Below are positions 3,666-45,590 of a DNA stretch of 64,000 bases, in pieces (the first letter of the stretch is position 1; each line of letters starts with the position of its first letter). Source of the stretch: a virus (lineage: Duplodnaviria > Caudoviricetes); IMG/VR virus record IMGVR_UViG_3300025892_000008. One strand, written 5' to 3'. The notes beneath the pieces are model-generated. The model ran no database searches and was not told the origin of the DNA. It saw only the letters and a program-made list of their open reading frames with translations. The position numbers and the translations under genes were made by a program.

Positions 3666-4695
3666 TTTATTTTATGTCAGTCAAGGCAAAGCAGAACACT
3701 GGCAAGAGTTTAAGTCTAGATTCTCTAATGCCCAACTGATTGAAGATGTTGAATCTCTAGATCAAATAAAGCAAAAGACATTAACTAGAATGTTTTGGGT
3801 AGTGTGGGATGATATGAAAGTAAAAGATGATTTTGACTTTGAATATCGTGCTACTGAGTGGGACCTAGAATACGTTCATGTATTCAAGAATGGTAATCAC
3901 TTCAATGGTGTTACCCTTATGCCTAAGAATGCTCCAGCATCTAACAAAGAATTCAAGTTCCGATTCTTTATCAACAAAAAAGAAATAGATATAGTAGCCA
4001 GCGATCCTAGGAGTATAGGAAGTAGTTTTGATATTGTGTTTATTTCTTACTATGAACCTTATGCAGATAAAAATTGGCAGCGGTTAAAAAGTAGATTCCC
4101 AAGAGCAAAAAGAATTTCAAACGTAAAAGGAATTCATCAAGCACATTTAGAAGCAGCAAAAATTGTTGAAAGTGATATGTTCTGGGTAGTAGATGGCGAT
4201 GCACATATAGTTGAAGAATTTAATTTTGATTACCAAGACCCGGAAATGTATACTGTGCATGTATGGCGTAGTATCAATCCAGTAAATGACTTAGAGTACG
4301 GATACGGTGGCGTTAAATTATTACCAACGCAGATGACTTTAGATATGGATATGTCTAAACCAGATATGACTACTAGTATTAGCAATAAATTTAAAGCCGT
4401 TAATGAACTTTCTAACATAACAGCATTTAATACAAATGAGTTTGAAGCATGGAAAGGTGCATTTAGAGAATGCTGTAAGTTAGCAAGTAAAACTATACGA
4501 GGACAAAACGAAGATGAAACTAATGAAAGGTTGGCTAAATGGTGTTCAGCCTATGGCAGAGATCGTCCGTTTGGTGATTACGCCATTCAGGGAGCCCGTG
4601 CTGGCAGGAAATATGGTGTGGCTAACAGTACTAATCCTGATGCTCTTAGATTAATAAATGACTTTGATTGGTTAAAGGAGCAGTTTGATGCATGA
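3655..4695 (+). CDS. GT2-like glycosyltransferase with an internally duplicated domain
   Basis: Two copies of the MFWVV(W/D)xD...F(D/N)F(E/D)Y...HV motif; ISYYEP, VDGDA and YGYGGVKL match the upstream paralogue. Confidence 0.65.
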   Translation: MIYDLFYVSQGKAEHWQEFKSRFSNAQLIEDVESLDQIKQKTLTRMFWVVWDDMKVKDDFDFEYRATEWDLEYVHVFKNGNHFNGVTLMPKNAPASNKEFKFRFFINKKEIDIVASDPRSIGSSFDIVFISYYEPYADKNWQRLKSRFPRAKRISNVKGIHQAHLEAAKIVESDMFWVVDGDAHIVEEFNFDYQDPEMYTVHVWRSINPVNDLEYGYGGVKLLPTQMTLDMDMSKPDMTTSISNKFKAVNELSNITAFNTNEFEAWKGAFRECCKLASKTIRGQNEDETNERLAKWCSAYGRDRPFGDYAIQGARAGRKYGVANSTNPDALRLINDFDWLKEQFDA

Positions 4696-6052
4696 CAAAG
4701 ATAGGATAGAAAAATTTATACCTATCATGGACGAGATATCGCCTACCTTCTGCTTGGCTAAATGGCATCACACTACTATCTATTTAGGAACAGGAGAAAC
4801 ACATAGTTGTTATCATCCTGCTCCACATAAAATTCCGCTGGAAGGACTAGAAGAAAATCCTAGTCTATTGCATAATACCCCTCAAAAGAAAGCCGAAAGG
4901 CAGGCTATGATAAACGGAGAGAAACCTAGCGGTTGTAACTATTGTTGGAATGTTGAATGTATGGGTAAAGATTACATTAGTGATCGTAAAGAACGGAATG
5001 CAAGTATACATACACCAAAACGTTTTAATGATATTAAACAAAATCCAATGGCAGATGTTAATCCACAATATGTGGAAGTTAGTTTCGGTAATGAATGTAA
5101 TTTTAAATGCGGATATTGTCATCCTAAACATTCTAGCAGTTACTATAAAGAAATTGAAAAAGAAGGTCCATACACTATGGTTAAGAATCATAGGAATGAT
5201 ATTGACTGGTTTAAAATACACAAAGACGAAGAAACAAATCCATATGTTAAAGCATGGTGGAAGTGGTGGCCTGAATTGCGTAAGACACTTACAATTTTAC
5301 GTATTACAGGTGGTGAACCGTTACTACAGCAAAGCACATGGCGTATGTTCGACGAACTAGAAAAGAATCCATGCCCTGAATTAGAATTAAACATTAACAC
5401 TAACTTAGGTGTTAAGCCTATCCTTATTGAAAGATTTACTGACAAAGTAAACAGTTTAGTTGAAAAAGGCTGTATCAAAGACTTTAAAATTTTTACTAGT
5501 ATTGATACATGGGGACCACAAGCAGAGTATATCAGAACAGGCTTAGATTTAGAGCTGTGGGAAAAGAACTTAGACATGTACATGACTAGAACTAATATGC
5601 CTTTAACATTTATGGTTACATTTAATATTTTAACTGTAACTAACTTTAGTAAACTATTGCAAAAGTTTTTAGACTGGCGAATAAAGTATAATAGTGATAA
5701 TCAAACTAAATGGCAGCGTATTAGATTTGATACTCCGTATCTGAAAGAACCGTTGCAATATGATATGAATATACTTCCTAAAGATGCATTTGTTCCTTAT
5801 ATGAAACAGCACTTACAATTTATAGCAGAAAATTTAGATGATGCAGACAAACACAAATTTAGTATACTTGAATATGAGAAGTTTAGACGTGTAGTTGATT
5901 ACATGGCTTCTACAAATTATACTCCAGAGCGTGTACAAGAAGGTCGAAGAGATTTTCACAATTGGTTTACTGAATATGATCGAAGAAGAAATGTAAGTTT
6001 TGTAGAAACGTTTCCCGAACTAGAGGAATTTTATTTTGACTGTGCCCAGTAA
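4685..6052 (+). CDS. radical SAM protein with N-terminal SPASM/twitch-like Cys cluster
   Basis: CNFKCGYC (CxxxCxxC), ITGGEP, and N-terminal FCLAKW...SCYH...CNYCW. Confidence 0.85.
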   Translation: MMHDKDRIEKFIPIMDEISPTFCLAKWHHTTIYLGTGETHSCYHPAPHKIPLEGLEENPSLLHNTPQKKAERQAMINGEKPSGCNYCWNVECMGKDYISDRKERNASIHTPKRFNDIKQNPMADVNPQYVEVSFGNECNFKCGYCHPKHSSSYYKEIEKEGPYTMVKNHRNDIDWFKIHKDEETNPYVKAWWKWWPELRKTLTILRITGGEPLLQQSTWRMFDELEKNPCPELELNINTNLGVKPILIERFTDKVNSLVEKGCIKDFKIFTSIDTWGPQAEYIRTGLDLELWEKNLDMYMTRTNMPLTFMVTFNILTVTNFSKLLQKFLDWRIKYNSDNQTKWQRIRFDTPYLKEPLQYDMNILPKDAFVPYMKQHLQFIAENLDDADKHKFSILEYEKFRRVVDYMASTNYTPERVQEGRRDFHNWFTEYDRRRNVSFVETFPELEEFYFDCAQ

Positions 6053-7223
6053 AACATTTTGCATATTGCCTTGGATACATCTGTATGCCAATCCTGACGG
6101 CACTGTTCTACCTTGTTGTGTAGGAGACTGGCAGCAATCTATGGGTAATGTTCAGAACACAAAATTAGAAGATGTCTTTAATAATGAAAAGTTTAAGCAG
6201 ATGCGTAAGAACATGTTGGCTGGAAAAAAATGTAGCCAATGTACTGCATGTTACCGCGATGAAGATTCAGGTAACAGTAGTTTTCGTAAGCACAGCAACG
6301 AGCAGTTTGAAAAATATATTGATGATGCAGTTTTAAACACTAATGATGATGGCAGTATGGACGATTTTAGGTTGCGATATTTAGATGTTAGATGGAGTAA
6401 TATTTGCAATTTTAAATGTAGATCTTGCGGTCCTTTGTATTCAAGTAGTTGGGCGCAAGAACACGGTAGCGAAAAAATCTTTACCTATGCAGGCGGAGTT
6501 AGCAATGATGAACTATACAAACAGTTTGAACCTCACTTTGACACTATAGAAGAATTTTACTTTGCAGGCGGCGAGCCATTACTTACAGATAAGCATTACG
6601 AAATATTAGAATATCTAATTGATCACGATCGAACAGATGTAAAGTTAAGATACAACACAAACATGAGTGTGTTAAAATATAAAGGAAAGAGTGTTTTAGA
6701 CTTATGGAAAAAATTTAGTAACGTTATGATTGGAGCGAGCCTAGATCATTATGGATCTAAGGCTGAATATATACGGCACGGGACAGATTGGCCTTTAGTT
6801 GAAAGTAATTTAAAATTAATTCGGAAGGAAACTCCACATGTAGAATTGCATACAAACACGGTAGTATCTATTTTTAATATAAAGACTTTACCTAAGTTTA
6901 TTCAGTATATTATTGATAATGATTTAGTCAGTACAAAAAATTATAACCCTAATTTTTATAATATAATGAATCCAGACTATTATAGTTTTAAAATAATCCC
7001 AGAAGAGGACAAGGTAGATATCATAAAATCCTTGGAAGAGTTTGCTACACAGCACGGTGGAAACATCAAATATGGAATGCAGGGTGTTATAAATGGATTA
7101 CGAACATCGATGTATTCTCCCAAACTTAAAACAAAGTTATCGGTAGAAACAAAACATTACGATCATCTGCGCAAAGAAAGCGTAGAAGAAACTTTTCCTG
7201 AAATACAAGGATGGATTCAATGA
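6036..7223 (+). CDS. radical SAM protein with N-terminal SPASM/twitch-like Cys cluster (start may be GTG 6042)
   Basis: CNFKCRSC, FAGGEP, and N-terminal FCILPW...PCC...CSQCTAC. Confidence 0.85.
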   Translation: MTVPSKTFCILPWIHLYANPDGTVLPCCVGDWQQSMGNVQNTKLEDVFNNEKFKQMRKNMLAGKKCSQCTACYRDEDSGNSSFRKHSNEQFEKYIDDAVLNTNDDGSMDDFRLRYLDVRWSNICNFKCRSCGPLYSSSWAQEHGSEKIFTYAGGVSNDELYKQFEPHFDTIEEFYFAGGEPLLTDKHYEILEYLIDHDRTDVKLRYNTNMSVLKYKGKSVLDLWKKFSNVMIGASLDHYGSKAEYIRHGTDWPLVESNLKLIRKETPHVELHTNTVVSIFNIKTLPKFIQYIIDNDLVSTKNYNPNFYNIMNPDYYSFKIIPEEDKVDIIKSLEEFATQHGGNIKYGMQGVINGLRTSMYSPKLKTKLSVETKHYDHLRKESVEETFPEIQGWIQ

Positions 7224-10478: not shown

Positions 10479-11663
10479 GTGAAGATAGGATTTATTGGAT
10501 TAGGTAAATTAGGATTGCCATGTGCAGAAGTAATTGCTAAAAAAGGACATAGTGTACTAGGTTATGATATTGATACAGTACATAGTGATTATGTAATTGT
10601 AGAAGATACTATACAAGATGCAGTAAAGGATAGAGATATTGTGTTTGTTGCTGTTCCTACACCACATGATCCTAATTATGATGGTAGAGCACCTACAGCA
10701 CATTTAGAACCAAAAGATTTTTCATACGATATTGTTCATAGTGTCCTTAAAGAAGCAAATAAGCATATGAATAAAGACCAATTGCTTGTGCTTATTAGCA
10801 CAGTATTGCCAGGTACAGTACGCAGAGAATTTATACAACACATTACTAATACACGGTTTGTTTACAATCCATACTTAATTGCAATGGGAACTGTTGCTTG
10901 GGATATGGTAAATCCGGATATAGTAATGATAGGAACACATGACGGAAGTGCTACAGGCGATGCTATCGAACTTGTAAGATTTTATCACACAATAATGGAA
11001 AACAATCCTAAGTATGAAATTGGAACTTGGGACGAATGTGAATGTATAAAAGTATTCTACAATACATTTATTTCAACTAAGATTGGATTAGTAAACATGA
11101 TGCAAGATGTTGCTGAGCGACAAGGTAATATAAATGTTGACAAAGTTACTGATGCATTATCTAACTCTACAAAAAGAATTACTAGTTCTGCATATATGAA
11201 AGCAGGAATGGGAGATGGCGGCGCATGCCATCCTAGAGATAATATAGCATTACGCTATATGGCTAAAAAATTAGATTTAGGTTATGATATCTTTGATGCA
11301 ATTATGAATGCTAGAGAAGTACAAGCACAAAATATTGCAACCAAACTCTGTGAAATTGCAAAAGAAAAAGAACTTCCTATTTTAATAAATGGTATTGCTT
11401 ATAAACCAGGTGTGCCTTATGTTGACGGAAGTTATGCATTACTAGTTTCACAATACTGTCACGAATACGGATTTAATCCAATGAAAATTGATCCATTAGT
11501 ATATGGACCTGACAAAGGACCTTATAGAGCAGTAGTTCTTCTTGCGCATCCAGAAATGTATATTGATGTTACTAATGATAGTGTTGTAGTTGATCCATGG
11601 AGAGAACATACTTCGGATACATACGAAGTTGTACATTACGGTAATACTAGAGAATCTTCTTAG
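10479..11663 (+). CDS. ugd: UDP-glucose/GDP-mannose dehydrogenase family protein
   Basis: GFIGLGKLG Rossmann motif, VAVPTP, STVLPGT, KVFYNT and catalytic GGACHPRD; GTG start; TAAATA at 10445-10450. Confidence 0.9.
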   Translation: MKIGFIGLGKLGLPCAEVIAKKGHSVLGYDIDTVHSDYVIVEDTIQDAVKDRDIVFVAVPTPHDPNYDGRAPTAHLEPKDFSYDIVHSVLKEANKHMNKDQLLVLISTVLPGTVRREFIQHITNTRFVYNPYLIAMGTVAWDMVNPDIVMIGTHDGSATGDAIELVRFYHTIMENNPKYEIGTWDECECIKVFYNTFISTKIGLVNMMQDVAERQGNINVDKVTDALSNSTKRITSSAYMKAGMGDGGACHPRDNIALRYMAKKLDLGYDIFDAIMNAREVQAQNIATKLCEIAKEKELPILINGIAYKPGVPYVDGSYALLVSQYCHEYGFNPMKIDPLVYGPDKGPYRAVVLLAHPEMYIDVTNDSVVVDPWREHTSDTYEVVHYGNTRESS

Positions 11664-31834: not shown

Positions 31835-32269
31835 TTATCTTCTTACTGGGTTCTCTCCAAATATACTGTTCTTCATATCTAGTGCATTTTTAGCAGTTCC
31901 GTTACCCGTTTTTGGTTGTTTAACCACTGGTTGCGGCGGTGCTTTTGTGCCTGATTTTCCACCCCATGGATTACCTGTATAGCTCTTCTTACCACGTGCT
32001 TTACCTGGACTCAAATGCGGTGCTTCTACACTAGCAATATTACCTGCTGCTGTAGCGCCTGCTGTTGCAGACTCTTTAAAGCCGTTTTCACCTGCTTCTT
32101 TCTCTAACTCATACTTTCTACGCATAAGTTCTTTCGTCAACTTCTCGCTTTTACTTGTTTCGGGATCTAACTGAATATCCTGCAAAGCCTTACGTTTTGC
32201 TTCGTAATCCTCTTTATCCTTAGTAATACTAGTTCTAGTATCTTCTGCAAATAATTCACTTAGTTTCAT
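31835..32269 (-). CDS. late protein with capsid-targeting-like N-terminus
   Basis: Starts MKLSELFAE; ATAAATA 5 nt upstream. Confidence 0.75.
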   Translation of the reverse strand: MKLSELFAEDTRTSITKDKEDYEAKRKALQDIQLDPETSKSEKLTKELMRRKYELEKEAGENGFKESATAGATAAGNIASVEAPHLSPGKARGKKSYTGNPWGGKSGTKAPPQPVVKQPKTGNGTAKNALDMKNSIFGENPVRR

Positions 32270-41840: not shown

Positions 41841-42140
41841 CTACTTATCTGATTTTTTAGATGTACCTGTGTACAATCCAAACCAAGCAGCACCAGCACC
41901 AACTACAATACTAATTAAACCTGATTGTTCCATAGTAGGAGTAGGTAAATTCATATACCAAATTACACACTTGTATAATAACACAATGTATACAGTTAAG
42001 AATAATCTTGGAAATATTCTCCAAGCATCAACTGCTTTGGCTAAATGAATTAATCCTTGATATGGATTTTGTGAACTATCAGTAGTTGTTGTATCTACTT
42101 CAAGATCAATTTGTACACTCTTTTTAATTGGATCGCTCAT
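41841..42140 (-). CDS. putative holin-like 2-TM membrane protein
   Basis: Two TM segments next to the spanins; ATAAATA at 42177-42171. Confidence 0.45.
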   Translation of the reverse strand: MSDPIKKSVQIDLEVDTTTTDSSQNPYQGLIHLAKAVDAWRIFPRLFLTVYIVLLYKCVIWYMNLPTPTMEQSGLISIVVGAGAAWFGLYTGTSKKSDK

Positions 42141-42173: not shown

Positions 42174-42557
42174 TTATTCAGTTGTGGCTTCTTTTTCGCC
42201 TTCATAATATTCACGATACTGTTCAAGTGTTAATCCTTGTTGTATCATATAAGCACGTATTTGTGCGAAGTTTTTAGATAATAATTCGTAATCTTCGTCA
42301 CTTAAACCAAACAGTACAGGGTCTTTGCCTTGCTCTTTCATTTTAGCAAATACTTCTGCTGCATTTTCTGAAGTGATTATGATCCAACGAACTTCCTCTA
42401 ATTTAGGAGTTTCAGGATTAGCAAGATTAAGAGGTGCTCTTTCTACTTCAGTTTTAAATACGTCTAACTTTGATACAGTGCTGCAACTAGTAAGGAACGT
42501 AGTTAGGATTAGCAAGACTAGGGCACTCAGAATTGATCTGTGATTTCTTAGTAGCAT
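42174..42557 (-). CDS. o-spanin-like lipoprotein
   Basis: Signal peptide with lipobox LTSC (Cys25); overlaps the i-spanin 3' end. Confidence 0.7.
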   Translation of the reverse strand: MLLRNHRSILSALVLLILTTFLTSCSTVSKLDVFKTEVERAPLNLANPETPKLEEVRWIIITSENAAEVFAKMKEQGKDPVLFGLSDEDYELLSKNFAQIRAYMIQQGLTLEQYREYYEGEKEATTE

Positions 42558-42972
42558 TTTTCTCTTTCTCCGTTAGTGGTGCGCCCATAGCAATTTCTAC
42601 ACATCTCATTGCTTTTTTGGTTGCGCTGTTAACAACACGTTCAACTGATGTTGGACGTTCTTCGGCAAGTTTTCCTATATCACGGACCTCACCTTGTCCG
42701 TTTATCTTATTAAAACGTTTGTCAAGTGCTTTGAATTCTGTTTGCAATACTCTGTTCTTATCTTCAAGTTCTTTGTTAGCAGACAATATAGCAGTAAAAT
42801 CTTTTTTCTGTTGTTCAATTACAGACTGTTGTTCAGACACACTGTCTAATAGTTTAGCATTATTTGCTTCACTAGTTGCAAGATCAGACTTTAATGTTTT
42901 TACATACAAAAAGCCGCCGCCTGCACCTGCTAACATAATTACAATCATCGCTATTTTAATTGATCCAAACAT
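42487..42972 (-). CDS. i-spanin-like protein
   Basis: N-terminal TM helix followed by a long coiled coil. Confidence 0.7.
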   Translation of the reverse strand: MFGSIKIAMIVIMLAGAGGGFLYVKTLKSDLATSEANNAKLLDSVSEQQSVIEQQKKDFTAILSANKELEDKNRVLQTEFKALDKRFNKINGQGEVRDIGKLAEERPTSVERVVNSATKKAMRCVEIAMGAPLTEKEKNATKKSQINSECPSLANPNYVPY

Positions 42973-43187
42973 TATGCTTCTACCAGTTTAATAAAGTCGC
43001 CAACAGTTTGAACGTTGGCTTCGTCTTCTTCTGAAATTGTTACACCTGTTGCTTTTTGAATAGCAACTGCTAACTCGATAATATCAAATTCATCAGCACC
43101 TAAATCGTCCATTAAATTTGCTTCTGGTACAACTTTAGATTCATCAATACCTAAGTGTTCTGCTACTGCTTTAATTACTTTTTTCAT
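42972..43187 (-). CDS. acyl carrier protein homologue lacking the phosphopantetheine serine
   Basis: LGIDESKV...DDLGADEFDIIEL...TVGD aligns to AcpP DLGADSLDTVEL with Ser changed to Glu (codon GAA). Confidence 0.85.
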   Translation of the reverse strand: MKKVIKAVAEHLGIDESKVVPEANLMDDLGADEFDIIELAVAIQKATGVTISEEDEANVQTVGDFIKLVEA

Positions 43188-43314
43188 CTACTTTTTCCTC
43201 TTGGTAACGTGGATATGTACAAACAATTATTTCTATTGGTTTGTTGTCTCCATCCATAAATGTTTCGATTAATCTGCCTTCGTGTGCTCTTCCACAATTT
43301 TGACAGGTAAGCAT
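43171..43314 (-). CDS. 47-aa putative Zn-binding protein (not in the ORF track)
   Basis: Hand-translated MLTCQNCGRAHEG...IIVCTYPRY; TAATG-coupled to the endolysin. Confidence 0.6.
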   Translation of the reverse strand: MLTCQNCGRAHEGRLIETFMDGDNKPIEIIVCTYPRYQEEKVDEKSN

Positions 43315-44180
43315 TAGTCTAACAGTTTTTCCAATGTTGCAGGACCAGCAATGCCATCAGCAACTAAGCCATTTGACATTTGCCATTGCTTCAATGCACG
43401 TTCAGTGCCAGGACCAAAGTCACCGTCAGCGCCAATACCTAATGCTTCTTGCATCATCTTAACACCTTCGCCTTTACATCCTTTACGTAGTACACCGATA
43501 TCATCAACATCAATGTGTCCTTCGTCTGTACCTAAATCGTCTGCATCCATACCTAATACTTTAAGTGCGTGTGCATAACGCTTTTGTCTATCTTCTAAAC
43601 CAATGTTACCGCCATTGATCTTTTTAGTCATTTTAACTACATTGTCTGTGTCAGCAATATTGTTAAGTTTAGTTGTGTCCCAGAACCAACAAGCACTTTC
43701 AATTGCACCTGCAGGAGTTGCAACATAATCTGATGCTTCCTCTGCTGTCTTACCAATACTTTCGCCAAACTTTGTATAGTTGTAACGACCAGTAAGTTGT
43801 TTTAATCCACGTCCACGGAATCTCCATCCGTCACCTTCGTTAACATTACCCATCTTGTATTTGCGATATGTGTCATTGTATACACGGTTAGCAATCATTT
43901 CTGGGTTACGAGCATACTCTGCTGCATCTGCTTTTGGAGCATTACCAAAGTAACGACCAAACACTGCACGTAATGCCTTTTCACTGTAGTTTAAATTTTC
44001 TTCTAATTTTTTAAAGCCTGCACTTTCGTGAGCGCACTGACTTAGGAAGTGTGCTACTCTACGTTCTGTTGTGATACCATACTTAGGTAATAGTTCACAT
44101 AGCGCATCATACCAGTTATCAGGATTATCAGAAATAATCTCTCCTAGGTGCGCTTTAGTAAATTCAAATTCAAAACTCAT
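43314..44180 (-). CDS. GH19 chitinase-like endolysin with C-terminal peptidoglycan-binding domain
   Basis: FLSQCAHES, ENLNYS, FRGRGLKQLTG and INGG motifs; PG-binding GADGDFGPGT...ADGIAGPAT. Confidence 0.9.
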   Translation of the reverse strand: MSFEFEFTKAHLGEIISDNPDNWYDALCELLPKYGITTERRVAHFLSQCAHESAGFKKLEENLNYSEKALRAVFGRYFGNAPKADAAEYARNPEMIANRVYNDTYRKYKMGNVNEGDGWRFRGRGLKQLTGRYNYTKFGESIGKTAEEASDYVATPAGAIESACWFWDTTKLNNIADTDNVVKMTKKINGGNIGLEDRQKRYAHALKVLGMDADDLGTDEGHIDVDDIGVLRKGCKGEGVKMMQEALGIGADGDFGPGTERALKQWQMSNGLVADGIAGPATLEKLLD

Positions 44181-44950
44181 TTTGTATCCTTTAATTTTAG
44201 AACCATTGTTTTTGATTCATTAGTAAACAAAAATTTGTCGCCGTATTTTTGTATGTTATAGTCTCCCATAACTTTAGTTAACCAGAAAATTTCTGCTGTA
44301 GCATTATCATCTACTTGAATATCTTCCATACCTTCAATTAGTTTATCATCACCTTCTTGAACAAGTTCAAACTCAACTTTGATATCAAATGGTTTAATTA
44401 TTGTTATTTTGTTATTTTCTAAAACTAAATCATCCATTAGTGTCTTAGTAAAGAAACTTTTAACTTCGTCAGTTCTAAATTTAGTCATAACTTGTTCGTA
44501 CATTTTCTTACTTGACGGAATCTTTCTCAAATTTTCTGTAGTAACAGACATTTTATCTTTATTTTTATAATACTTATATTCCCAATCTAAAATATTTGTT
44601 AACTTGCTTATACCAAAAACCATTTCCATAATGTTTTCTGCTAGTTTGTTATTTCTTTCTACTTCAACAAAAATAGAATATTCTCCATCTTTGTTTTCTC
44701 CTGCACTAACATCTGCATCTAGTACAAAAGGATATCCTTTCTCAATAAACTCCATAAAGTCTTTTGCAGGATTTCTATCTTTTGCTTGGAAAGTTACAAC
44801 ACAAACATCTGGGTCTTCACCCATTTTTGATTTATGTGTATCTACTTCCATCATAGGATAAAACATATCCTCTAAATCGTGTTTTCTCAAACCTTCTTCT
44901 AAAACTTTATTATTGTGCTTCATCTGGTGTTCCTTGTGCAGTTTGGTCAA
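44177..44950 (-). CDS. hypothetical protein
   Basis: 257 aa ORF. Confidence 0.75.
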   Translation of the reverse strand: MTKLHKEHQMKHNNKVLEEGLRKHDLEDMFYPMMEVDTHKSKMGEDPDVCVVTFQAKDRNPAKDFMEFIEKGYPFVLDADVSAGENKDGEYSIFVEVERNNKLAENIMEMVFGISKLTNILDWEYKYYKNKDKMSVTTENLRKIPSSKKMYEQVMTKFRTDEVKSFFTKTLMDDLVLENNKITIIKPFDIKVEFELVQEGDDKLIEGMEDIQVDDNATAEIFWLTKVMGDYNIQKYGDKFLFTNESKTMVLKLKDTK

Positions 44951-45431
44951 CTGGTTCTGGATTTTGTGCTTGTACTGAATTTGATAAAATGTCTTGTACT
45001 TTATTCTTATCTAAATTACTATAACCCCTGTCAACATTTTTCATAAGTGTTTTAGGCATTTTAATTTTTACCAACCATACTTGATTGTAATCAACTTTAC
45101 CTTTTCTTGTGCCTGGACGTATATCATCTGGTGTTTTAATTCTTCTTACATTAGCCATAGCAGTTTCAGCATAAGAAACTTTACAACCATACTCCATTAA
45201 TCTCTTACCGCCTGCAGGCTCTGGCATCTTATCATTAGGCCACATAAATGTACACGTAATATAATACCTGTCTTCTTTAGGACCTTCTGCTAATTCACCA
45301 TCGATCCAGTTGTCGAATACGTAAAGGTCAAGTTCATCAACAACACGCTCAAAGTCCTTTAATAGGTTTAAACTGTTGTTAGAACCGTAAATTTGTTCTA
45401 TATTTGATATAATGTCTTTAATGCTGGCCAT
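44910..45431 (-). CDS. hypothetical protein
   Basis: ATG 45431 with GGAG SD and ATAAATA at 45453-45447. Confidence 0.75.
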   Translation of the reverse strand: MASIKDIISNIEQIYGSNNSLNLLKDFERVVDELDLYVFDNWIDGELAEGPKEDRYYITCTFMWPNDKMPEPAGGKRLMEYGCKVSYAETAMANVRRIKTPDDIRPGTRKGKVDYNQVWLVKIKMPKTLMKNVDRGYSNLDKNKVQDILSNSVQAQNPEPVDQTAQGTPDEAQ

Positions 45432-45590
45432 GTTAGTCTCCACAAGTATTTATCGTTTTCTAAATGTTATACTATTATTTTCTTTTTACGAACTTAAATA
45501 ATAGTATGTTCGATAACGGACTTTTGACAATCTATACATACCCACACTCTGTTGTTGAGCATATTTCACTAACGGAGGAAAACCCCTAAT

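What the first reader, a model, noticed from the sequence alone, without database searches (positions are those of the whole stretch)
42972..43314. Pseudo-acyl carrier protein (Ser to Glu) translationally coupled inside the lysis cassette
Seen: a clear AcpP homologue in which DLGADSLD reads DLGADEFD (GAT GAA TTT). It cannot carry 4'-phosphopantetheine. Gene order is endolysin, 47-aa CxxC protein, ACP-like, i-spanin, o-spanin, with overlapping stops and starts. Established: ACP binds many partners (Fab enzymes, LpxA/D, AcpS, SpoT) via helix II next to this Ser. Inference: Glu mimics the phosphodiester, making a decoy that could inhibit lipid A or fatty-acid synthesis, alter ppGpp signalling, or tune lysis timing.
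Basis: partly seen in the sequence, partly recalled or inferred. Interest (0 to 1): 0.78.

Follow-up and report, generated by a model that had tools for sequence, protein, structure and literature searches.

The report
Serine-less acyl carrier look-alike before spanins
A giant ocean phage keeps, just ahead of its cell-bursting spanin genes, a well-folded copy of the bacterial fatty-acid carrier protein whose cofactor-bearing serine is always glutamate or aspartate, so it cannot carry lipids the normal way and most likely works by binding another protein, still unidentified.

Summary
Observation confirmed. Window 42972-43187 (- strand) encodes a 71-aa AcpP homologue (PF00550, E 3.8e-10). The AlphaFold model has pLDDT 95 and matches solved ACPs at TM 0.9. 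Glu33 (GAA) aligns without gaps to the phosphopantetheine Ser.

It is neither a sequencing error nor decay:
- Every relative found has Glu or Asp at the site, and all four acidic codons are used.
- Median dN/dS is 0.22.

The constant neighbour is the i-spanin, not the endolysin. In 43 of 48 loci the gene lies directly 5' of i-/o-spanin. The upstream gene varies: GH19 endolysin, GH108-like endolysin, or none. The 47-aa CxxC gene occurs in one clade only. Close relatives lack the gene, so it is accessory.

Cultured phages add two points. RaK2-like jumbo phages have a Ser-type ACP before an unrelated spanin pair. Glu-type ACPs also occur in Serratia Miltonvirus phages and in ICP1, where one sits beside a Ser-type paralogue, so Ser-to-Glu arose more than once.

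Best reading: a prosthetic-group-free mimic of holo-ACP that docks on a basic ACP site. The target is unknown.

This scan had already flagged Ser-less phage ACPs on other DNA (Ackermannviridae, a peat phage, another ocean phage). I found no paper describing them. Class: new variant of a known kind.

The parts
42972..43187 (-). ACP-like protein, 71 aa, Glu33 in place of the 4'-phosphopantetheine Ser ('ACP-E')
   Evidence: PF00550 E 3.8e-10. AF2 pLDDT 95.2, four helices, Glu33 is the first residue of helix II. Foldseek matches to AcpP at TM about 0.9, rmsd 1.0. Gapless alignment to GADSLD.
43171..43314 (-). 47-aa CxxC protein. Invariant Cys4, Cys7, His11 and Cys32 suggest a small zinc knuckle plus beta-hairpin. 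Present only in the clade whose ACP-E is 70% or more identical.
   Evidence: Alignment A2. ORFs in loci L082-L103. AF2 pLDDT 81 with two strands. No Pfam, PHROG or NCBIfam match. No fold match.
43314..44180 (-). Endolysin: GH19 catalytic domain plus PG_binding_1, with no signal sequence
   Evidence: phrog_181 E 2.4e-71, PF00182 and PF01471. In L082, whose ACP-E is 100% identical, a GH108-like endolysin (phrog_315) sits at the same place.
42487..42972 (-). i-spanin (Rz-like): N-terminal membrane helix and periplasmic coiled coil. Its start shares one base with the ACP-E stop.
   Evidence: phrog_739 E 3.9e-12. Alignment A3.
42174..42557 (-). o-spanin (Rz1-like lipoprotein, lipobox L-T-S-C). It starts inside the i-spanin gene.
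   Evidence: phrog_812 E 4.1e-8. Sequence.
44177..44950 (-). Virion structural protein, the upstream gene of the same overlapping gene string. In clades without an endolysin here it abuts ACP-E directly.
   Evidence: phrog_13138 E 1.4e-27. Loci L108 and L111.
45446..45453 (-). ATAAATAC motif, a candidate late promoter (T4-late-like) for the string 177-aa gene, virion protein, endolysin, CxxC, ACP-E, spanins
   Evidence: All five matches in the window are on the - strand, each about 20-35 nt before a start codon. The promoter role is inferred.

Best explanation
The gene encodes an AcpP-derived protein that has given up the carrier function and is kept as a small acidic protein-binding module.

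Shown:
- It has the ACP fold.
- It has no attachment Ser.
- The site is always Glu or Asp, and the gene is under purifying selection.
- The docking residues of helix II (Asp32, Asp35, Glu38) and the acidic helix III are kept.
- It sits in one overlapping gene string with virion and lysis genes.
- Across diverged clades it lies directly before the i-spanin start.

Inferred:
- The carboxylate stands where the phosphate of the prosthetic group sits in holo-ACP.
- The protein therefore docks like holo-ACP on the basic patch of an ACP client but delivers nothing.
- It is made late, together with the spanins.
- The most likely targets are host ACP-dependent enzymes of envelope lipid synthesis (glycerol-3-phosphate acyltransferase, lipid A acyltransferases, Fab enzymes). 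Blocking them would freeze or weaken the envelope at the time of lysis.
- It is an accessory, not a core lysis protein, because sister phages lyse without it.
For: Fold and homology.

The acidic site is selected:
- All 60 database homologues have E or D.
- All six syntenic loci found through the endolysin that carry a gene in this slot have Glu. This sample is not biased by the motif.
- Codon use at the site among distinct loci is GAA 17, GAG 10, GAC 6, GAT 3.
- Median pairwise dN/dS is 0.22.

Docking residues: D32 and D35 are invariant and E38 nearly so, also in cultured-phage relatives.

Link to spanins:
- 43 of 48 loci have ACP-E directly 5' of i-/o-spanin, whatever lies upstream.
- RaK2-like phages GAP32 and fHe-Yen9-03 have an ACP directly before a spanin pair of other PHROG families (phrog_1152, phrog_2425), with no BLASTP similarity to the window's spanins.
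- PMC7760394 independently notes an ACP near the spanin in Erwinia jumbo phages.

Repeated origin: Glu-type ACPs occur in Serratia Miltonvirus phages and in ICP1 beside a Ser-type paralogue. They fall in a different tree group from the marine clade, and the tree needs at least three changes of state.

Precedents from papers:
- Excess ACP stops E. coli growth by inhibiting glycerol-3-phosphate acyltransferase, and apo-ACP inhibits more strongly than holo-ACP (PMC3896788).
- An ACP without Ser works purely as a binding subunit in Plasmodium, where the partner lost the Arg that holds the phosphate (PMC8547962).
Against: - No partner was identified.
- The acidic triad in the C-terminal half of helix II (E. 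coli Glu47-49, mapped by the +3 offset) is Gln-Lys-Ala here and varies among clades, so docking on canonical clients may be weakened.
- Host ACP is very abundant (0.25% of soluble protein in E. coli, PMC3896788), so a competitor must be made in large amounts.
- The adjacency to spanins within the marine group may come from one ancestral arrangement, so only two lineages give independent support.
- A Gly variant (P0068) and a Trp variant (P0107) exist among near relatives outside the spanin-linked clades, so an acidic residue is not required everywhere.
- Close relatives lack the gene. One record, 86% complete, has no PF00550 anywhere.
Confidence: 0.45

Rival explanations
1. A dedicated accessory of the phage's own lysis machinery. 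ACP-E binds a phage protein (i-spanin, o-spanin precursor, holin or the CxxC protein) and tunes the assembly, timing or activation of the outer-membrane step, rather than touching host lipid enzymes.
For: It is tightly coupled to the i-spanin start in all spanin-linked clades. A second, unrelated spanin family is also preceded by an ACP in RaK2-like phages. In one clade it overlaps the CxxC gene.
Against: ACP-E has no signal sequence, and the i-spanin has only about five cytoplasmic residues. Contact would therefore need release through holin lesions. i-spanins 72-75% identical to the window's work without ACP-E in sister phages. CxxC is missing from most clades. The 2-TMD gene 41841-42140 is also present in a relative without ACP-E, so it does not co-vary.
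Confidence: 0.2
2. A late or virion-associated protein unrelated to lysis, for example an assembly factor or a packaged or injected host-takeover protein. Its place before the spanins is inherited gene order.
For: It always lies downstream of virion protein phrog_13138 and abuts it directly where no endolysin is present. In another myovirus type it lies between a virion protein and the tail sheath (L104, L106). ACPs were detected by mass spectrometry in virion preparations of Erwinia jumbo phages and, with a single retrieval, of a Vi01-like phage (PMC7760394 and PMC10892097).
Against: The mass-spectrometry detections are weak and concern distant ACPs. Nothing in the sequence points to capsid targeting. 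The independent ACP-spanin adjacency in RaK2-like phages is left unexplained.
Confidence: 0.15
3. A carrier that uses the Glu carboxylate as a covalent attachment point, as the amino-group carrier protein LysW uses its C-terminal Glu. A ligase encoded elsewhere would load it.
For: Only the strict need for a carboxylate at the site and the presence of a small Cys-rich acidic-tailed neighbour. A Trp-variant relative sits beside two radical SAM/SPASM genes, which shows that ACP-like scaffolds are used in other chemistry in these phages.
Against: Glu and Asp interchange freely between close relatives, which a loading enzyme would tolerate poorly. No ATP-grasp or ligase gene is in the cassette. CxxC lacks the second zinc knuckle and the LysW tail; the LysW features are from my own knowledge.
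Confidence: 0.04
4. A sequencing error, or a recently inactivated ordinary acpP picked up from the host.
For: None after testing.
Against: Glu or Asp is found in all relatives down to 28% identity. Four acidic codons are used, dN/dS is 0.22, the fold is predicted with high confidence, and identical sequence occurs in many independent metagenomes.
Confidence: 0.01

Closest known systems
Bacterial type II fatty-acid-synthase acyl carrier protein AcpP (PF00550; TIGR00517)
   Same: Same four-helix fold (TM about 0.9, rmsd 1.0, 30-40% identity to solved AcpPs). Same D-x-x-D frame around the attachment site and the same acidic start of helix II.
   Different: Glu or Asp replaces the Ser, so AcpS-type phosphopantetheinylation is impossible. 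It scores below every NCBIfam cut-off (66.7 against 71; TIGR00517 54.7 against 70.45). The Glu47-49 triad of helix II is lost. It is encoded by a phage and coupled to spanins.
Apicomplexan mitochondrial ACP without Ser (Plasmodium falciparum mACP, Ser to Phe; PMC8547962)
   Same: An ACP fold kept under selection without a prosthetic group and working as a protein-binding subunit. The replaced residue is part of the interface.
   Different: There the residue is hydrophobic, and the partner Isd11 lost the Arg that binds the phosphate. Here the residue is acidic, which points to a partner that keeps a basic phosphate-binding patch. The partner here is unknown, and no LYR protein is evident.
Apo-ACP as a growth inhibitor in E. 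coli (reviewed in PMC3896788)
   Same: ACP that cannot be acylated inhibits glycerol-3-phosphate acyltransferase and stops growth. That is the effect a permanent non-carrier ACP could have.
   Different: That is an overproduction artefact of the cell's own protein. Here a virus encodes a permanently unmodifiable form with a negative charge at the site. The same review notes that SpoT does not bind apo-ACP, so it is open which clients accept the Glu form.
Ser-type ACP genes preceding spanins in RaK2-like jumbo phages (GAP32_159, fHe-Yen9-03 g156; Erwinia Eneladusvirus, PMC7760394)
   Same: Same gene order: ACP, i-spanin, o-spanin. The authors noted the proximity.
   Different: They keep the Ser and could be loaded. 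Their spanins belong to other families and show no detectable similarity.
Glu-type ACP look-alikes of cultured phages (Serratia Miltonvirus 2050H1, phiMAM1 and Kevin; Vibrio phage ICP1)
   Same: Glu at the same aligned column, and the same invariant flanking Asp residues. All are annotated 'acyl carrier protein' or hypothetical.
   Different: They fall in a different tree group and are not next to recognisable spanins. ICP1 has a Glu-type and a Ser-type copy in tandem.
Dedicated ACPs that acylate membrane-active proteins (Salmonella IacP acylating the T3SS translocon; PMC5279801)
   Same: A small ACP genetically tied to proteins that act on membranes.
   Different: IacP needs its Ser and prosthetic group to donate an acyl chain. 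ACP-E cannot do this.

Membership tests
AcpP / PP-binding (PF00550) | Four-helix ACP fold | tested here: met
   AF2 pLDDT 95.2 with helices 2-12, 33-47, 53-57 and 62-70. Foldseek top hits are all AcpP, TM 0.86-0.95.
AcpP / PP-binding (PF00550) | Sequence match above Pfam's gathering score | tested here: met
   40.3 bits against 20.8.
AcpP / PP-binding (PF00550) | Conserved Ser of the D-S-L motif that receives 4'-phosphopantetheine | tested here: not met
   Glu33 aligns to the Ser without gaps. Every relative has Glu or Asp.
AcpP equivalog (TIGR00517, NF002151 and others) | Score above the curated equivalog cut-off | tested here: not met
   Best score 66.7 against 71. TIGR00517 scores 54.7 against 70.45.
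AcpP / PP-binding (PF00550) | Carries acyl groups in vivo | not testable with these tools
   Needs mass spectrometry of the protein. It is excluded by the standard chemistry because the Ser is absent.
Ser-less, binding-only ACPs (apicomplexan mACP type) | ACP fold kept under selection without the Ser | tested here: met
   dN/dS 0.22. Conserved across clades down to 28% identity.
Ser-less, binding-only ACPs (apicomplexan mACP type) | Stable complex with a defined partner (Isd11/LYR protein) | not tested
   No partner is known. The one complex job run gave no verdict (see Tried and rejected).
Phage lysis cassette (spanin-associated accessory) | Conserved adjacency and coupling to i-/o-spanin genes | tested here: met
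   43 of 48 loci, with a gap of -17 to +14 nt. A second lineage with another spanin family shows the same order.
Phage lysis cassette (spanin-associated accessory) | Contribution to lysis | not testable with these tools
   Needs genetics. Sister phages lack the gene, so it is not essential.
LysW-type amino-group carrier protein | Zinc-ribbon body, C-terminal Glu tail and an ATP-grasp loading enzyme nearby (features from my own knowledge) | tested here: not met
   ACP-E is an ACP fold, not a zinc ribbon. Neighbouring genes show no ligase. The CxxC neighbour matches no family or fold.

The most novel reading that the evidence does not exclude
Acidic Ser-less ACPs are a class of phage-made holo-ACP mimics that arose more than once (marine jumbo phages, Ackermannviridae, ICP1). 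Each would block a specific host ACP client of envelope lipid or lipid A synthesis. In the marine and RaK2-like lineages the ACP module has become a fourth, auxiliary part of Gram-negative lysis that prepares the membranes for spanin-driven fusion.
Probability: 0.15. Interest if true: 0.85.

Novelty: new variant of a known kind. Interest (0 to 1): 0.6.

Why it matters
ACP is a central hub of bacterial lipid metabolism and has dozens of protein clients. A virus-made copy that cannot be loaded, carries a fixed negative charge at the loading site and evolved more than once would be a natural probe, or inhibitor, of that hub. It would point to the host step that large phages most need to control late in infection.

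The repeated placement of ACP genes before spanins hints at an unrecognised link between lipid metabolism and the outer-membrane step of lysis.

The same kind of protein exists in cultured, genetically tractable phages (ICP1, Serratia phiMAM1 and 2050H1; Ser-type in GAP32 and fHe-Yen9-03). The question can therefore be tested directly.

Databases currently name all of these 'acyl carrier protein', which is misleading for metabolic annotation of viral metagenomes.

Tried and rejected
1. Complex prediction of i-spanin (A3) + CxxC (A2) + ACP-E (A1) gave no verdict: score 0.26, below the mark of 0.32, and the controls were not run. This is no evidence either way.
2. blastn of the cassette against cultured phages found no match. 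The window has no whole genome on hand, so I could not scan for a second ACP, a phosphopantetheinyl transferase or Fab/Lpx genes. Within the 64-kb window there is only one ACP-like ORF.
3. I suspected a His11-Glu33 pair (metal site or covariation). Rejected: His at that column is equally common in Ser-type ACPs, 70 of 174 domains.
4. I suspected that the 2-TMD gene 41841-42140 co-varies with ACP-E. Rejected: a relative without ACP has it at 79% identity elsewhere in its genome.
5. CxxC protein: no Pfam, PHROG, NCBIfam or PADLOC family, and no Foldseek PDB match with E of 0.001 or better.
6. A frameshift fusion of CxxC to ACP-E through the A-run at the overlap was rejected by reading the frames. 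The slippery heptamer is not in phase, and relatives with the short CxxC form have no overlap.
7. Sigma-70 promoter and terminator scans around the cassette gave nothing above shuffles for promoters.
8. Expression: identical contigs occur in RNA libraries of two studies (X3 and X9; part of X17). Contigs cannot prove transcription, and DNA carry-over is possible.
9. Other cultured-phage ACPs have Ser and no spanin neighbour: Vibrio 10AMN, 1.187.O and helene, Erythrobacter R6L, P-HM2, Xanthomonas PhiXhv-12, pf16, phiRSL1.
10. Bias to note: the loci were seeded with a pattern that required E or D at the site, and works by shared words. The unbiased samples are the synteny set and the profile search. 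In the latter the nearest non-family hits are ordinary Ser ACPs.

Full report
WHAT IS THERE

On the - strand the window carries one string of overlapping or abutting genes:
- a 177-aa ORF (44910-45443);
- a virion structural protein (44177-44950, phrog_13138);
- an endolysin (43314-44180; GH19 plus PG_binding_1, phrog_181 at E 2.4e-71);
- a 47-aa CxxC ORF (43171-43314);
- the 71-aa ACP-like ORF (42972-43187);
- an i-spanin (42487-42972, phrog_739);
- an o-spanin that starts inside it (42174-42557, phrog_812, lipobox L-T-S-C).

Further downstream lie a 2-TMD protein (41841-42140), DnaJ, peptide deformylase and a Clp-type ATPase.

The window also holds a T4-type family B polymerase and a clamp loader. 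GC content is about 35%. Homologues sit on marine contigs of up to 272 kb. This is an uncultured marine jumbo phage, and it has no nucleotide match among cultured phages.

THE ACP-LIKE PROTEIN

- It matches PF00550 above the gathering score.
- AlphaFold predicts a four-helix ACP at pLDDT 95.2, with Glu33 as the first residue of helix II.
- The best structural matches are solved AcpPs at TM about 0.9 and rmsd about 1 Å.
- Sequence alignments to solved ACPs have no gaps and place Glu33 on the Ser of GADSLD.
- It falls below every curated NCBIfam ACP cut-off.

IS THE GLU REAL AND SELECTED?

Yes.
- All 60 database homologues, down to 43% identity, have Glu or Asp at the site.
- I collected syntenic loci through the endolysin, which does not bias the site. 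Twenty had both endolysin and i-spanin. Six carried a gene between them, and in all six it was an ACP-like protein with Glu, some at only 28-36% identity.
- Among distinct loci the site uses GAA 17, GAG 10, GAC 6 and GAT 3 times.
- Median pairwise dN/dS in the closest clade is 0.22.
- The stretch is held in runs of 11 studies, all marine or seawater where the sample is named. No variant at this codon appeared in the four runs laid.

A profile search of 1.84 billion representatives shows that the spanin-linked family forms a handful of clusters, all E or D. The next-best hits are ordinary Ser ACPs: 174 of 212 aligned domains have Ser.

WHAT IS IT TIED TO?

The endolysin is not the constant neighbour.
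- In L082 and L083, whose ACP-E is 100% identical, a GH108-like endolysin (phrog_315) replaces the GH19 enzyme.
- In two other clades there is no endolysin here, and the virion protein abuts ACP-E directly.
- The CxxC gene is confined to the clade with 70% or more identity.

The i-spanin start immediately downstream is invariant. It is found in 43 of 48 loci, with gaps from a 17-nt overlap to 14 nt.

The gene is nevertheless dispensable.
- Phages whose i-spanins are 72-75% identical go straight from endolysin to i-spanin.
- An 86%-complete relative has no PF00550 anywhere.

The remaining loci show other settings.
- In L104-L106, ACP-E lies between a virion protein and the tail sheath of another myovirus type.
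- In L127, it lies beside Sak4 and SSB genes.

Because these marine phages share gene order, the many loci amount to roughly one evolutionary observation.

INDEPENDENT SUPPORT FROM CULTURED PHAGES

In Cronobacter phage GAP32 and Yersinia phage fHe-Yen9-03 an annotated ACP is followed at once by a one-TMD protein of phrog_1152 (Rz-like spanin) and a lipobox protein (phrog_2425 / phrog_456). These have no detectable similarity to the window's spanins. Those ACPs keep the Ser.

The authors of PMC7760394 remarked that the ACP of Erwinia jumbo phages lies near the spanin-like gene, and they detected it in virion preparations.

Other cultured-phage ACPs I read have Ser and no spanin neighbour.

THE GLU TYPE IS NOT UNIQUE TO THE OCEAN PHAGES

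- Serratia Miltonvirus phages (2050H1, Kevin; seven records) have Asp-Glu-Leu-Asp at the aligned site.
- ICP1 has two adjacent ACP-like genes, one with Glu and one with Ser.

A maximum-likelihood tree on 81 columns is poorly resolved, as expected for so short a protein.
- All marine E-type proteins, plus a Gly variant, form one group (support 91/75).
- The ICP1 pair, the Serratia protein, L127 and a Ser-type Vibrio phage ACP form another (95/74).
- Parsimony needs at least three changes of state.

Ser to Glu therefore probably happened more than once.

This scan had already flagged Ser-less ACPs in Ackermannviridae, a peat phage and another ocean phage beside spanins. My results agree with those notes and add three things: the ICP1 pair, the RaK2-like Ser-type case, and the swapping of the upstream endolysin.

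I found no paper describing the substitution. One preprint predicts a phage ACP-FabZ contact.

HOW IT MOST LIKELY WORKS

Shown: the protein cannot be phosphopantetheinylated at the canonical site. Selection demands a carboxylate there. It keeps Asp32, Asp35 and Glu38. With the +3 offset these correspond to E. coli Asp35, Asp38 and Glu41; the E. coli numbering is from my own knowledge. It also keeps the acidic helix III.

Inferred: the carboxylate imitates the phosphate that partner enzymes hold with Arg or Lys, giving a holo-ACP look-alike with no arm.

Precedents:
- Excess ACP, and apo-ACP more strongly than holo-ACP, stops E. coli growth by inhibiting glycerol-3-phosphate acyltransferase (PMC3896788).
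- Plasmodium mACP works as a pure binding subunit, and its partner lost the phosphate-binding Arg when the Ser became Phe (PMC8547962). An acidic replacement predicts the opposite: a partner that keeps the basic patch.

Timing is probably late. All five ATAAATAC motifs in the window lie on the coding strand 20-35 nt before start codons, one of them ahead of this gene string. That is an inference.

The target remains unknown. Weaknesses of the decoy model are the loss of the Glu47-49 triad, the abundance of host ACP, and the Gly and Trp variants in neighbouring clades.

RIVALS

- A regulator that binds the phage's own spanins, holin or the CxxC protein. This is topologically awkward, and the candidate partners do not co-vary with ACP-E.
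- A virion-associated or injected protein.
- A Glu-linked carrier. This is unlikely because Glu and Asp interchange and no ligase is nearby.
- Error or decay. This is excluded.

VERDICT

The 'cannot carry phosphopantetheine' reading is right. The decoy idea is plausible but unproven. The accurate description of the context is 'before the spanins', not 'inside the lysis cassette next to the endolysin'.

It is a new variant of a known kind: ACP-fold proteins, including rare Ser-less ones. It recurs in phages, is unnamed in the literature I could search, and can be tested in cultured systems.

Noticed in passing
L134:1318-1980 (Vibrio phage ICP1, MW794148.1): Two adjacent ACP-like genes with similar N-termini. 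The first has Glu at the attachment site (L-D-E-L-D) and the second (GP97) has Ser (M-D-S-L-D). This is a natural paired experiment in a tractable phage.
   Followed up: partly
L135:1693-2698 (Cronobacter phage GAP32) and L132:2234-3399 (Yersinia phage fHe-Yen9-03): A Ser-type ACP directly followed by a phrog_1152 Rz-like spanin and a lipobox protein (phrog_2425). In GAP32 these two are annotated only as 'putative membrane protein' and 'hypothetical protein', so the spanin pair seems under-annotated.
   Followed up: partly
L139:1413-3725 (JGI contig of a related phage): An ACP-like protein with Trp at the attachment site (N-A-D-W-L-D, P0107) sits directly before two radical SAM genes, the first with a faint SPASM hit. 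The contig shares an 88-aa protein with window 31838-32080.
   Followed up: partly
window 4685-7223 and 10479-11663 (+ strand): A block of + strand genes includes two radical SAM proteins (one with a SPASM domain) and a UDP-glucose/GDP-mannose dehydrogenase-like protein. Several neighbours of 280-410 aa match no Pfam family.
   Followed up: no
window, whole: TATAAATA, the T4 late-promoter octamer, is absent (0 matches against 10.2 ± 3.1 in shuffles). ATAAATAC occurs five times, always on the - strand just upstream of start codons (31831, 37425, 42170, 45446, 51430).
   Followed up: partly
L082:2365-2877 versus window 43314-44180: Endolysin module swap at one position. A GH108-like phrog_315 enzyme of 170 aa replaces the GH19 + PG_binding_1 enzyme of 288 aa, while the flanking ACP-E (100% identical) and i-spanin (99%) are unchanged. 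The GH19 endolysin itself occurs at 66-87% identity in many otherwise unrelated viral contigs.
   Followed up: partly
L081:6192-9446: A 1084-aa protein with CarboxypepD_reg and outer-membrane beta-barrel (TonB-dependent-receptor-like) domains is encoded by a phage contig just downstream of the spanins and before DnaJ.
   Followed up: no
L073:4869-6140: In this relative a 54-aa membrane protein and a 358-aa protein with a signal-like N-terminus lie between endolysin and i-spanin. The junction seems to be a hot spot for accessory genes.
   Followed up: no
proteins P0074 (425 aa), P0087 (934 aa), P0069, P0091, P0095, P0116: Multi-domain proteins that contain one or more ACP-like domains with Glu or Asp at the attachment site. 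Their origin and context were not examined.
   Followed up: no
window 41841-42140 (-): A conserved 99-aa protein with two predicted membrane helices (phrog_10198, unknown function) has its own ATAAATAC motif. It sits at different genome positions in relatives. It is a holin candidate, but this was not tested.
   Followed up: partly
window 42835-43401: One contig in run X3 joins 42835 to 43401, skipping 565 bases that hold the 5' end of the i-spanin gene, ACP-E, CxxC and the 3' end of the endolysin gene. It probably comes from a co-occurring relative without the two small genes.
   Followed up: no
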